This document shows positions 1-36,070 of a DNA stretch of 64,000 nt, piece by piece (positions within the stretch are counted from its first letter, which is position 1; each line of letters starts with the position of its first letter). The notes below the pieces were generated by a model that saw nothing but the letters and a program-made list of their open reading frames with translations, had not been told where the DNA came from and ran no database searches. Source of the DNA: Eledone cirrhosa (lineage: Eukaryota); NCBI GenBank assembly GCA_964016885.1, contig OZ024741.1, forward strand, positions 76,818,001 to 76,882,000, read 5' to 3'. The position numbers and the translations under genes are program-made.

Positions 1-290
1 TTTTGGTCATTTTGGAAGCCTCAACAATGCAGATGGGTAAATCTCCATGTAACAGAATCCGGTGGTGAAGAGAGAGATGTAAGGGAATGTAGAATGAGAT
101 GTATAGTGTGTAGAGGAACGTAGGAAAGAGCGTAAAAATAAAAATAATACCACGAGATAGAGTTACCTTGGGAGAGATTTAATTGTCCCTATATTTCGGA
201 TTCGCATCTATCAACTGGGGGGTTTTCCGGGAGGGAAAAGTTATCTGTCGGAGAGGAACGGTACGTGTCCTCTGCTGTCCGCTGTTTGTG

Positions 291-5330: not shown

Positions 5331-7035
5331 CGTAACTAATCAGAGAGAGAATTGATCTAGATGAAATGCAGTTCGGGTTTGTGTCAGGCAAAAGTACAAC
5401 AGACGCTCTTTTCATTGTACGACAACTACAGGAGAAGTACCTAGCTAAAAGTAAACCCCTATACTTAGCTTTTGTTGACTTGGAGAAAGCCTTCGACAGA
5501 GTCCCCCGTTCCATTATCTGGTGGGCTCTTAGAAAACTAGGTGTTGACGAATGGCTTGTGAGAGCTATACAAGCCATGTATAAAGAAACAGTCAGCAAGG
5601 TTAGAATTAACAACGAATATTGTGAAGAGTTTAGCGTAAAAGTTGGCGTCCATCAGGGCTCTGTTCTCAGCCCCCTACTATTTATTATTGCCCTTCAGGC
5701 TATAACAGAGGAGTTCAAGACCGGTTGCCCATGGGAACTCCTATACGCAGATGACCTAACACTCATAGCTGAATCAATGGCCGAGCTAGAGAAGAAATTC
5801 CAAACATGGAAGCACGGCCTAGAATCAAAAGGCCTTAAAATTAACCTGGCTAAAGTTCTAGTTTGTAAGAAAGAAAATAAGGTGGCGGTCCCTTCCGGGA
5901 AGTGGCCATGCTCAGTGTGTAGGAAAGGCGTAGGTAGAAACTCCATTTTGTGTCCCAGATGCAAAGTATGGGTGCATAAAAGATGTAGTGGGATCACAGG
6001 TAAGCTAACTAAGAACATAGATTTTACATGTGGCCGGTGCTCTGATGCAATAAGTAGCAGCAAGTGCCCACAAAATACTAGCTCTTTCAACTGCGCAGAG
6101 GGTTCTATAGAAATAGTGGACAGCTTCCGTTACCTGGGTGACAAAATCAGCAGTGGGGGAGGGTGCTCTGAAAGTACAGTAGCTAGAGTCAGAAGTGGAT
6201 GGAAAAAGTTCAGAGAGCTTATACCACTATTAGCCGCTAAAGGGTTCTCCCTAAAAATGAAAGGCAGGTTGTATGATGCCTGCATATGAACAGCAATGTT
6301 GCATGGCAGTGAGACCTGGGCATTGTGTGCAGAGGATATACACAGACTAGAGAGAAACGAAGCTTGCATGCTCCGCTGGATGTGTAATAGTAATATACGT
6401 GAACGGCAAAGCATAAACGAACTAAGGGAGAAATTAGAAATAAGAGGGATCAGATGTTGTTTACTCGAGAGAAGGCTACGTTGGTATGGTCACGTGATGC
6501 GCATGAAAGACGACAGCTGTATAACAAAGTGCAGGGCAATAAAGATAGACGGTAGCCACGGAATAGGCAGACCCAGAAAAACCTGGGACGAGTTGATAAA
6601 TTCCGACCTCACACACTTACACCTCACCAAGACAATGTCACTGGACCGAGACCTTTGGCGGTACTCAGTAATAGAGAAGAGCCGCCTTACCTAAATACAA
6701 AAACCTACTACAGTCAGTAGGCATCTCTAACAAAATACACCCCCGTCCCACCACCCCCACCCCATCCACACTGCCCCTTTCAATGTAAAGTTATGTTGGT
6801 GCCACAACATCCAGGCCGAAACAAATGAGATCGTGTAGGCAACACGGTAAAAACCTCCCAGTCCCACACTGTAAATGTGGTTGGTGTTAGGAAGGGGATC
6901 CAACTGTAGAAAACCTGCCAGACAGTCCTATGCGAGCAACATAATCACTCTTGCATCAAGTGGGAAAACCCCCGTCCAAACCCATGCAAGCGTGGAACAC
7001 GGATGTTAAACGTTGATGATGATGATGATGATGAT
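5331..7035 (+). mobile_element. RTE-clade LINE (family A), 5'-truncated within the RT
   Basis: RT motifs QFGF, AFVDLEKAFDRV, GVHQGSVLSPLLF, LLYADD and FRYLG, followed by the 3' UTR and a (GAT)n tail at 7015-7035. Confidence 0.96.
5366..6694 (+). pseudogene. RTE ORF2 remnant (RT, embedded PHD-like finger, C-terminal domain) with one in-frame stop
   Basis: ORFs 5366..6289 and 6296..6694 are in the same frame. TGA at 6287-6289 corresponds to CGA in the copy at about 22623. Confidence 0.92.
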
Positions 7036-7055
7036 ATTATATATATATATATATT

Positions 7056-7577
7056 ATAAAGTTAAATAAAAGTCAAATGATTAAAATTTAGCTTCGTTTA
7101 TTACTGCTATATATATTTCAGTGACAGCCATCTTTGGCTGTGACCTCTTCAGGCAGTTTGAATTAGTATGGTATAGACAAGTACATATGTTGTTTAGGTG
7201 TATGATATTGTCAATACTCTGATATGCCCAGTTCCTTGTTGGGTTGTTAATTCACTGGGGAACTGGAGTCATATCAGTGAATTAACAACCCAACAAGGAA
7301 CTGGGCATATCAGAGTATTGACAATATCATACACCTAAACAACATATGTACTTGTCTATACCATACTAATTCAAACTGCCTGAAGAGGTCACAGCCAAAG
7401 ATGGCTGTCACTGAAATATATATAGCAGTAATAAACGAAGCTAAATTTTAATCATTTGACTTTTATTTAACTTTATTTTACACTACTCCGGAGTAACCAA
7501 ACCAACCTGCGCACTTCGTCGAGTGCTCCAGCCTGCATACTGAGGTGTTGGTATACAACCAACATAAACTCAAAATC
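7056..7577 (+). mobile_element. Penelope-like pseudo-LTR insert: perfect 202-bp inverted repeat plus a 101-nt unpaired tail
   Basis: 7056-7257 is the exact reverse complement of 7275-7476 (17-nt spacer). Each arm contains a hammerhead motif, and the insert is flanked by (TA)n. Confidence 0.8.
7375..7429 (+). ncRNA. Minimal type I hammerhead ribozyme (mirror copy on the - strand at 7103-7157)
   Basis: ACTGC-CTGAAGA-GGTCACAGCCA-AAGA-TGGCTGTCACT-GAAA-TATATA-TA-GCAGT: 5-bp stem I, intact core, stem II 10/11 paired, palindromic mini stem III, AUA cleavage triplet. Confidence 0.85.
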
Positions 7578-7586
7578 TATATATAT

Positions 7587-7618
<32 letters not shown>

Positions 7619-8850
7619 ATATTATATATATATATATAATATATATATATTATATATATATATATATATTATATATATATATATATTATATATATATATT
7701 ATTTATATAATATATTATATATATATATTATATATATATATATTATATATATATATATAATATATATATATTATATATATATATTATATATATATATATA
7801 ATATATATATATTATATATATATATATAATATATATATATTATATATATATATTATATATATATATATAATATATATATATTATATATATATATTATATA
7901 TATATAATATATATATATTATATATATATATATAATATATATATATTATATATATATATATAATATATATATATTATATATATATATATTATATATATAT
8001 ATATTATATATATATATAATATATATATATATATATTATATATATATATTATATATATATATATATAATATATATATATTATATATATAAATATATTATA
8101 TATATATATATATTATATATATATATCTAATATATATATATTATTGTTATACTTTGGGAGGGTCATGTTGCCAATAAAAAACAATATATATACATTATAT
8201 ATATATAATTTATATATATGATATATATATATATATTATATATATAATATATATATATTCATATATATATATATATTATATATATAATATATGTATATTA
8301 TATATATATATTATATATATATATATAATATATTTATATTATATATATATATTATATATATTATATATATACTATATAATATATATATATATTATATATT
8401 ATATATTATATATATATAATATATATATATATTATATATATATAATATATATATATTATTGTTATACTTTGGGAGGGTCATGTTGCCAATAAAAAACAAT
8501 ATATATATATTATATATAATGTATATATATGATATATATATATATATTATATATATATATATATAATATATATATATTATATATATAATATATGTATATT
8601 ATATATATATATTATATATATATATATTATATATATTATATATATATATTATATATATATATATTATATATATATATATTATATATATTATATATATATA
8701 TTATATATATATATATTATATATATATATATTATATATATTATATATATATATTATATATATATATATTATATATTATATATATTATATATATATATATT
8801 ATATATATTATATATATTATATATATATATTATAAAATATATTATATATA

Positions 8851-8891
<41 letters not shown>

Positions 8892-9031
8892 TATATATAT
8901 ATATATATTATATATATTATATATATATATTATATATATTATATATATATATATTATATAATATATATATATATTATATATATATATATATAATATATAT
9001 ATATATATTATATATATATAATATATATATA
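7578..9031. repeat. ~1.45 kb (TA)n array with phase shifts
   Basis: Almost pure alternating A/T with TT/AA slips; it contains two copies of a 43-bp unique motif. Confidence 0.97.
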
Positions 9032-9590
9032 TTATTGTTATACTTTGGGAGGGTCATGTTGCCAATAAAAAACACACGCACCAGTTGCTTTCACTTCAAT
9101 TTATTATAAATTTATAAATTTCTGGTTGGTTGGTTGGTTCCACAACCTGATGATTGTGTATATATTGTCAAAGTTCTTTCGTCACACATTCTGTGACCTC
9201 TTCAGTGACTGGGGATTCTTTTCTTTGTTTTTCTGCCTCTCCTTTGTTCTATCCTACGCCATCTTGTTTTTGTGTGTGTTGTGTGCTTAGTTTGTGCATG
9301 TGTTACATCCGGGTGTCTGTGTCTGTTTATATTTGTTTATTTATTTGTTTATTTACATGTTATTGGTTGGTTGTTTGTTCTATGTGCGTGTGTGTCTTCA
9401 CAATGCTGTACTAGTTTCAAGCTTATTAGCTATCGTCAGTAACGTATACCTTCCTGCCAGATGGTTAGTACAGCTTTCCTTTGTCAGTGTTGAACAAATG
9501 AGCAACGATGGTTGCTAGACACTGTATGGCTTAATTTGGGATGTTTGTTTACAAACACACCGAGCATTATAATAAATGTTCGGTGAAGCC
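9032..9590 (-). mobile_element. Probable Penelope-like 3'/pLTR fragment with a hammerhead motif at 9167-9209
   Basis: Minus strand reads GTCA-CTGAAGA-GGTCACA-GAATG-TGTGAC-GAAA-GAAC-TT-TGAC. It shares CTGAAGAGGTCACA with the 7375 ribozyme and ends in (TA)n. Confidence 0.62.
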
Positions 9591-35566: not shown

Positions 35567-35841
35567 CCCTCTTCTTGCTATTTCAAGTGTTAACCTAATA
35601 TATTCCTTCCATATACTGTACCTATTGTGTTGTTATTTCTGTTTACCTTTAACATATATATATATGCATTTTATATTATGTAAAACTCATAGCAAATTGA
35701 CATATACTTTCCTAGATACTTGGAATTTCCCAAAGCAAGTTAGCCATGTGTTTTACATAATATAACATTTATGTTCATGTATTGAGGGCTCATTCTTTAG
35801 TGATTACAACCCCACACTCAGGCAGCTATATAATCATATAT

Positions 35842-36070
35842 ATATTTATTAAAATAACAGATTAAAGTTTAAGCAAAGAATCGCTGCTTTCACCCTTAAC
35901 GGTATCTTCTGAAGATCCTGTTAAGGGTGAAAGCAGCGATTCTTTGCTTAAACTTTAATCTGTTATTTTAATAAATATTTTAATAAATATTTGCTCTAGG
36001 GTTCTTATATATTTGATATATATTTATCCTTATCGAGCCTTCTTTGGATTTTAGTCTTCACATTTATTAT
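35842..36070 (+). repeat. Perfect 59-bp-arm inverted repeat plus a ~90-nt tail, with a hammerhead-like core
   Basis: 35842-35900 is the reverse complement of 35920-35978. CTGAAGA-TCCTGTTAAGGGT-GAAA spans the spacer and right arm. Confidence 0.82.

What the first reader, a model, noticed from the sequence alone, without database searches (positions are those of the whole stretch)
7056..7577. Perfect 202-bp hairpin carrying an intact hammerhead in each arm
Seen: 7056-7257 is the exact reverse complement of 7275-7476 (17-nt loop), followed by 101 unpaired nt. The insert sits between an RTE (GAT)n/(TA)n tail and a 1.4-kb TA array. Zero mismatches imply very recent formation or ongoing conversion between arms. 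Inference: a transcript from either strand would contain one sense ribozyme, and in the full hairpin it would pair with its own antisense copy. Self-cleavage and long-dsRNA formation (Dicer or ADAR substrate) would then compete.
Basis: partly seen in the sequence, partly recalled or inferred. Interest (0 to 1): 0.75.

Follow-up and report, generated by a model that had tools for sequence, protein, structure and literature searches.

The report
Head-to-head ends of a Penelope retrotransposon
This DNA hairpin is real but not unique: it is two short end-pieces of a young Penelope-type jumping gene set head to head, one of over a thousand such pairs in this genome, and because nearly every pair joins one short end to one tailed end, they were likely made by copying one RNA from both cut DNA strands.

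Summary
The hairpin is confirmed (202/202 nt). It is not a special ribozyme switch. It is a head-to-head pair of 5'-truncated terminal repeats (pLTRs) of a young Penelope-like element whose parent ORF carries Hydra-clade motifs, inserted into (TA)n. The 17-nt loop is the pLTR's first 17 nt; the unpaired stretch is the Penelope 'tail'. The genome holds 1,316 such pairs against 15 tail-to-tail. Zero mismatch reflects youth: 24 of 100 arms at other loci match the window's arm. The layout, and hammerheads on opposite strands, are published (PMC4209133, PMC3846280, PMC8557442). What the data add: 760 of 769 pairs join one short and one tailed end, 34 of 35 in a second family; arms share haplotype in 51 of 52 comparisons; either arm may be longer (18 vs 15). 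This favours double target priming on one RNA over fold-back. Self-cleavage versus dsRNA 'competition' is unlikely: read-through makes the antisense arm first. The locus is not read-confirmed. This scan noted the same double-priming idea earlier on other DNA.

The parts
5336..7015 (+). 3' part of a LINE (RT frame with a PHD finger, one stop at 6287-6289, then 3' UTR); RTE label recalled. Neighbour, not part of the insertion
7016..7055 (.). (GAT)n LINE tail followed by (TA)n: left half of the (TA)n target
7056..7274 (-). Left arm: pLTR positions +1 to +219, short ('S', tail-less) 3' end joined to (TA)n
7103..7157 (-). Minimal type-I hammerhead motif, left arm; predicted cut between 7108 and 7107
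   Evidence: mirror of the right-arm motif
7258..7274 (-). The 17-nt loop = first 17 nt of the pLTR, present only in the left arm; +1 lies in a CATATG palindrome and is the commonest 5' end (41 of 102 arms end at -1..+3)
7275..7577 (+). Right arm: pLTR +18 to +223 plus tail, tailed ('T') 3' end joined to (TA)n
7296..7310 (+). 3' half of an internal inverted repeat of the pLTR (+1..16 with +39..53) used at recurrent junctions
7375..7429 (+). Minimal type-I hammerhead motif: stem I 7375-79/7425-29, core 7380-86, stem II 7387-7412 (G-U closing pair), GAAA 7413-16, self-complementary AU stem III, predicted cut after 7424
7481..7577 (+). 97-nt Penelope 'tail'; in a tandem copy it runs on into the 5' UTR and ORF
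   Evidence: (L031)
7578..9035 (.). (TA)n-type array, right half of the target; holds two exact 39-nt copies of the end of a second family
9036..9460 (-). Short-ended copy of a second hammerhead-bearing, (TA)n-inserted family (core at 9205); right boundary approximate

Best explanation
The hairpin is a single, recent, non-coding insertion of a Penelope-like retrotransposon with Hydra-clade motifs, made of two 5'-truncated pLTR copies set head to head in a (TA)n tract, and it likely arose by double target priming on one RNA. Shown: family identity, copy numbers, the one-short-one-tailed rule, shared haplotypes, either arm longer. Inferred: the RT-GIY-YIG protein (probably a dimer) nicks both strands of (TA)n; one 3'-OH primes reverse transcription at the pLTR end (+223), the other at the tail end (+320) of the same RNA; both cDNAs stop early, most often near the CATATG palindrome at +1; their 3' ends anneal or are end-joined and each serves as template for the other. 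The hammerheads ride along as part of the pLTR. At this locus they are likely inert: read-through RNA would form a 202-bp duplex, a possible Dicer/ADAR substrate, rather than self-cleave.
For: Parent: pLTR, tail, 5' UTR and ORF are contiguous in L031; RT YxDD, RWK, DKT, CxCx5C, CxxC, CxH motifs; GIY-YIG E 7e-4 and 2e-3, below Pfam's cut-off. 6,162 exact 28-nt hits; 1,316 head-to-head vs 15 tail-to-tail. End rule: 51 of 51 inspected pairs; genome-wide 760 short+tailed, 4 short+short, 5 tailed+tailed; 12 of 12 classifiable partners among 52 seemingly unpaired hits had the opposite end, some only a piece of tail; second family 34 of 35. Same source: 51 of 52 haplotype comparisons agree within 30 young pairs, 64% when shuffled, 0 of 5,000 shuffles reach it. 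Neither arm is a copy of the other: short arm longer in 18, tailed arm longer in 15, equal in 18; in L032 and L035 the short-ended arm is 2.8-3.9 kb and the tailed arm about 0.35 kb. Junctions: overlap of 2 nt or more in 22, blunt 16, insertion of 5 nt or more 13 of 51. Anole PLE protein cuts and extends both strands, starts RT at two sites bounding the tail, and is predicted to dimerise (PMC11167929, parts 1-2 of 4 read).
Against: Snap-back does occur: 4 of 52 unpaired hits carry a 19-36 nt inverted piece around CATATG with no short or tailed end. 18 of 51 pairs are near-symmetric, as fold-back predicts. Asymmetric centres could be later deletions in perfect palindromes: the recurrent +1/+54 junction (14 of 30 loci) fits deletion between internal repeats equally well; asymmetric pairs are slightly more diverged (0.017 vs 0.011, p=0.11). 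Haplotype sharing could reflect one source active at a time rather than one RNA. [quoted passage not shown] No intact ORF was seen in the three long copies read. No read spans this locus's centre. All evidence is from one assembly.
Confidence: 0.72

Rival explanations
1. Fold-back self-priming: one cDNA starting at the tail end folds on the CATATG palindrome and copies itself; the endonuclease resolves the copy at the pLTR end; asymmetric centres come from later deletions. This is the published reading for rotifer elements (self-priming) plus EN-mediated resolution of the tail.
For: PMC3846280 (Discussion read) and PMC8557442 (passages). Perfect palindromes at CATATG are the commonest class; short snap-back pieces exist; arms share haplotype; it also yields one tailed end.
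Against: The unique loop belongs to the short-ended arm in 18 of 51 pairs, including this one; short-ended arms kilobases longer than their partners; 7 of 14 loci of the +1/+54 class have the short arm reaching +1 while the partner has the tail; 9 of 33 asymmetric pairs have zero mismatches, leaving little time for remodelling; short ends occur without partners (16 of 52).
Confidence: 0.2
2. A locus-specific regulatory RNA in which self-cleavage and dsRNA formation compete, kept perfect by conversion.
For: Core residues present; ribozyme columns are the least variable part of the pLTR (0.7-1.0% vs 3-6% in flanks), which points to selection in the source element; the left arm alone is predicted to form stems I and II about half the time.
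Against: One of 1,316 pairs; arms decay independently with age; antisense arm is always transcribed first and stem pairing is 0.000 in the full hairpin; monomers of this ribozyme type did not cleave (PMC4209133).
Confidence: 0.04
3. Fold-back sequencing or assembly artefact at this locus.
For: No read or contig bridged the centre; a perfect palindrome next to long AT repeats is hard to assemble.
Against: An artefact would mirror flanks and both ends; here the ends differ by the family rule, the flanks differ, the same junction recurs at another locus with different flanks and haplotype, and many sister pairs have diverged arms.
Confidence: 0.03
4. The hairpin spreads as a unit (MITE-like or non-autonomous hairpin element).
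For: A modal length recurs (perfect palindromes at +1); identical junction at two loci.
Against: Junctions vary widely among 51 pairs; the two loci with the same junction carry different haplotypes; this exact junction has 2 hits genome-wide.
Confidence: 0.01

Closest known systems
Insertion units of EN+ Penelope-like elements: pLTR, adjacent inverted 5'-truncated copy, one-sided tail (PMC3846280 passages and Discussion; PMC8557442 passages, section 11, supplement part 2)
   Same: Head-to-head inverted pLTRs, palindrome at the junction, tail at one end only, partial tandems (L031), hammerhead in the pLTR.
   Different: Tail is 97 nt (about 58 nt in the second family) rather than 30-40; the one-tailed rule is counted here on 769 pairs; no TSD can be read in (TA)n.
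Hydra clade of C-terminal-EN PLEs (PMC8557442), e.g. Penelope-13_HM, Hydra-1_Obim
   Same: RWK, DKT, CxCx5C linker, CxxC and CxH around the catalytic E/N, (TA)n targets, hammerhead near the 3' end. Supplement lists Penelope-13_HM with an inverted 5'-truncated copy and a hammerhead on each strand, also with a G-U closing pair.
   Different: About 3.9 kb in L031 versus generally under 3 kb; its hammerhead sequence differs from that listed for Hydra-1_oBim, so a different family; no tree was built.
Minimal hammerheads of metazoan PLEs (PMC4209133, parts 1-2 of 4 read)
   Same: Long stem II, 5-bp stem I, tiny palindromic stem III; that paper already reports dual motifs 100-700 bp apart on opposite strands.
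   Different: No extra nucleotide between 9 and 10.1 in the best register, G-U rather than G-C at 10.1-11.1 in the young subfamily; activity untested.
LINE-1 twin priming (recalled, not read)
   Same: Second nicked strand primes a second cDNA; the two are joined by microhomology, giving an inversion.
   Different: Here both cDNAs cover the same RNA segment from two fixed start sites, so the product is a palindrome, not a 5' inversion.

Membership tests
EN+ Penelope-like element | Single ORF with RT and C-terminal GIY-YIG endonuclease | tested here: met
   RT YxDD frame then GIY-YIG-like domain in L031, L032, L035; Pfam GIY-YIG E 7e-4, under the curated cut-off; RT not hit by Pfam; all three copies are broken
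EN+ Penelope-like element | pLTR formed by partial tandem, flanking the ORF | tested here: met
   L031: pLTR-tail-ORF-pLTR
EN+ Penelope-like element | Inverted 5'-truncated copy and tail at one end | tested here: met
EN+ Penelope-like element | Hammerhead motif within the pLTR | tested here: met
Hydra clade | RWK present, GxKF/Y absent, DKG changed to DKT | tested here: met
   (DKT in L031, EKT in L035)
Hydra clade | CxCx5C linker; CxxC and CxH around conserved E and N; CCHH absent | tested here: met
   only one Cys between the VY and YIG motifs, read by eye
Hydra clade | Insertion into (TA)n | tested here: met
   outer flanks of 51 pairs
Hydra clade | Generally shorter than 3 kb | tested here: not met
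   ORF start to 3' end about 3.9 kb in L031; a tendency in the paper, not a defining rule
Hydra clade | Phylogenetic placement of the RT | not tested
   no reference set aligned; closest database hits are unnamed proteins of a brittle star and a sea anemone, 36-39% identity
Type-I minimal hammerhead ribozyme | Core CUGANGA / GAAA / UH with stems I and II | tested here: met
Type-I minimal hammerhead ribozyme | G10.1-C11.1 pair | tested here: inconclusive
   G-U here, G-C in 28 of 102 arms; G-U also listed for Hydra-clade motifs
Type-I minimal hammerhead ribozyme | Self-cleavage (as dimer or with protein) | not testable with these tools
   needs an in vitro assay
Non-LTR retrozyme | Head-to-tail tandem hammerhead monomers, no coding parent sequence | tested here: not met
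   arms are head to head and trace to a coding PLE
MITE | Fixed terminal inverted repeats moved as a unit | tested here: not met
   ends differ by the tail and junctions vary

The most novel reading that the evidence does not exclude
Penelope-like elements integrate by an obligatory asymmetric double priming: one RT dimer on one RNA, one subunit starting at the pLTR end and the other at the tail end, the two cDNAs completing each other's second strand. The 99% one-short-one-tailed rule in two families is its genomic footprint, and every insertion, including 'solo' copies, is such a two-armed event with arms of variable length.
Probability: 0.6. Interest if true: 0.65.

Novelty: new member of a known kind. 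Interest (0 to 1): 0.38.

Why it matters
The locus itself is an ordinary stub. Its value is as one of about 1,300 records of how Penelope-like elements make their inverted ends and second strand, a step that the biochemical paper read here leaves open (PMC11167929) and that was earlier ascribed to self-priming (PMC3846280). The strict pairing of end types gives a sharp, cheap prediction for the existing in vitro system. Secondarily, thousands of young, near-perfect 100-220 bp hairpins (1,316 and 2,845 pairs in two families) are a potential source of dsRNA in this genome, though no expression was tested.

Tried and rejected
DNA search of the own genome with 7275-7577 returned nothing (common words are skipped), so patterns were used. 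Rfam: no hammerhead among 33 weak matches. Pfam: no family for the 481-aa RT frame. Sequencing runs: no RNA holder listed. Two read layings were swamped by the repeat; no listed piece bridged the centre; contigs of one sample did show both 3' ends followed by TA. A first end pattern for the second family caught only 9 loci because I mis-set its short end; not used for the rule. Conversion between arms: rejected. ADAR scar in DNA: at most 2 A>G or T>C changes on one strand in any of 51 pairs. Idea that the three bases after the loop were templated from the internal hairpin: fits 55 loci with that junction start but no control pattern was run, so left as a guess. Age difference between symmetric and asymmetric pairs: not significant. 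Literature searches for a published twin-priming account of PLE inverted ends and for PLE hairpins as dsRNA listed none by title or abstract; the library lacks most subscription papers, so this is not proof of absence. Look-up of earlier findings by sequence gave nothing.

Full report
Observation. The arms 7056-7257 and 7275-7476 are exact reverse complements over 202 nt with 17 nt between them. My motif scan of the whole window found type-I hammerhead-like motifs at 7380 (+) and 7152 (-), plus three others. The isolated 76-nt motif folds into stems I and II (z -2.8, 1 of 200 shuffles as good), stem III does not form. Rfam gave no hammerhead among 33 matches at E<=5. Upstream is a LINE-type RT frame with a (GAT)n end; downstream a TA array to 9036.

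Family. A 28-nt piece of the ribozyme has 6,162 exact hits in the 3.0-Gb own genome. Two 17-nt anchors 60-400 nt apart give 1,316 head-to-head pairs and 15 tail-to-tail pairs (exact anchors, so lower bounds). In L031 the arm sequence, the unpaired stretch, a short 5' UTR and an ORF are contiguous, and the ORF is followed by a second arm copy: the arm is a pLTR of about 223 nt, the unpaired stretch the 97-nt tail. The ORF has RT YxDD, RWK, DKT, no GxKF/Y, a CxCx5C linker, a GIY-YIG-like domain with CxxC and CxH (Pfam GIY-YIG E 7e-4, below cut-off). These are the features given for the Hydra clade in PMC8557442 (section 11 read), which also targets (TA)n. No tree was built, the element is longer than typical, and all three long copies read are broken. 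Numbered on the pLTR, the window's left arm runs +1 to +219 and ends short; the right arm runs +18 to +320 with the tail. The loop is simply +1 to +17.

The end rule. I inspected the first 50 listed pairs (all on contig C1, of 1,316) plus the window: 51 of 51 have one short and one tailed end, nearly all against (TA)n or TC/TA repeats. Genome-wide, 16+16-nt end anchors give 760 short+tailed, 4 short+short and 5 tailed+tailed (none dropped, although several of the 9 are complex loci). Among 52 hits not paired within the first list, 12 had an inverted partner with a classifiable end and all 12 were of the opposite type, three holding only part of the tail; 8 had unclassified partners; 32 had none seen, 6 of them running off the fetched stretch. 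A second family, whose short end sits at window 9036, has 2,845 pairs; of 35 inspected (of the first 50 listed; one apparent duplicate skipped, 14 not fetched) 34 follow the rule. I did not trace that family to an ORF.

Age and conversion. 16 of 51 pairs have no mismatch; the window's right arm has no mismatch to 24 of the 100 arms at other loci over their overlap; older pairs differ by up to 10%; variants private to one arm number 60, those private to a pair and shared 22. So identity reflects a young subfamily and arms drift apart afterwards; occasional conversion is not excluded. Within 30 young pairs, three polymorphic sites agree between arms in 51 of 52 comparisons, against 64% on shuffling, with 0 of 5,000 shuffles as high: both arms come from one source, likely one RNA, though serial activity of single sources would also give this.

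Mechanism. A fold-back of a tail-primed cDNA requires the tailed arm to be at least as long as the short arm, and a short-primed cDNA cannot supply the tail. Yet the short arm is longer in 18 pairs, the tailed arm in 15, equal in 18; in L032 and L035 the short-ended arm is kilobases longer. Junctions show overlap of 2 nt or more in 22, are blunt in 16 and carry insertions in 13 of 51; 41 of 102 arms end at -1..+3, in a CATATG palindrome. A recurrent junction joins +1 to +54 through the pLTR's internal inverted repeat in 14 of 30 loci examined (of 55); in 7 the arm reaching +1 is short-ended with a tailed partner, in 4 it is the tailed one, 3 are unclear. PMC11167929 (parts 1-2 of 4 and passages read) shows a PLE protein cutting and extending both target strands, starting RT at two sites that bound the tail, with a predicted dimer, and leaves second-strand synthesis open. 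I infer double priming with annealing or end-joining of the two cDNA ends. Against it: 4 loci show short snap-backs with no defined 3' end, and later deletions inside perfect palindromes could mimic asymmetry (asymmetric pairs slightly older, p=0.11; but 9 of 33 have zero mismatches).

The ribozymes. The core and stem I columns vary least (0.7-1.0% against 3-6% in flanks), consistent with selection in source elements. At this locus the arms point outwards, so read-through from either strand makes the antisense copy first. Predicted pairing of stems I and II is 0.000 in the full RNA on both strands, about 0.02 for the right arm with tail and about 0.5 for the left arm alone. PMC4209133 (parts 1-2 of 4) found no cleavage for a single minimal motif and low cleavage for dimers; PMC11167929 found the anole motif protein-assisted and dispensable for insertion in vitro. 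A real kinetic competition is therefore unlikely; a duplex is the expected product if the locus is transcribed, which is untested. No A-to-G scar was seen in 51 pairs.

What is known. PMC4209133 reports dual minimal hammerheads 100-700 bp apart on opposite strands in Schistosoma. PMC3846280 (passages, Discussion) describes inverted pLTRs with junction palindromes and a one-sided tail, and reads them as self-priming. The supplement of PMC8557442 (part 2 of 59 and term searches) lists a Hydra element with an inverted copy and a hammerhead on each strand. 10.64898/2026.07.22.740005 (part 1 of 5) and PMC13282606 (passages) were background only. Searches listed no paper on twin priming in PLEs; subscription papers and unread supplements may hold one. 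After forming my reading I found that this scan had noted the same double-priming idea on other DNA; these are unchecked AI notes and not support.

Verdict. Real feature, new family member of a known kind, ordinary as a locus; moderately interesting as a countable record of an unresolved step in PLE transposition. The single locus is not confirmed by reads. Interest 0.38.

Noticed in passing
window 9036-9460 (-), 8145-8183, 8460-8498: Short-ended copy of a second hammerhead-bearing (TA)n-inserted family; its terminal 39 nt recur exactly twice inside the TA array (array duplication or tiny separate insertions). The family has 2,845 head-to-head pairs and a tail of about 58 nt.
   Followed up: partly
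window 35830-35990: Small head-to-head inverted pair (80-nt arms, 91%) of a third family with a hammerhead-like core; one arm ends at (TA)n, the other runs on.
   Followed up: partly
window 35535 (+) and 16022 (+): [quoted passage not shown]
   Followed up: no
L003, L030, L169, L173: Short 19-36 nt inverted pieces centred on CATATG with no defined 3' end: apparent aborted snap-back synthesis.
   Followed up: partly
L053, L082: One arm carries a short run of older-subfamily letters near the ribozyme while the other does not: possible template switch or conversion from another copy.
   Followed up: no
L057, L076, L085, L093, L095, L096: Junction insertions that repeat nearby pLTR sequence, like templated end-joining insertions.
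   Followed up: no
window 5336-6289: The upstream LINE RT frame contains a PHD finger (E 2e-6); a similar frame occurs in L201.
   Followed up: no
window 7481-7577: The tail holds three small hairpins, including a 12-nt perfect palindrome at its start.
   Followed up: no
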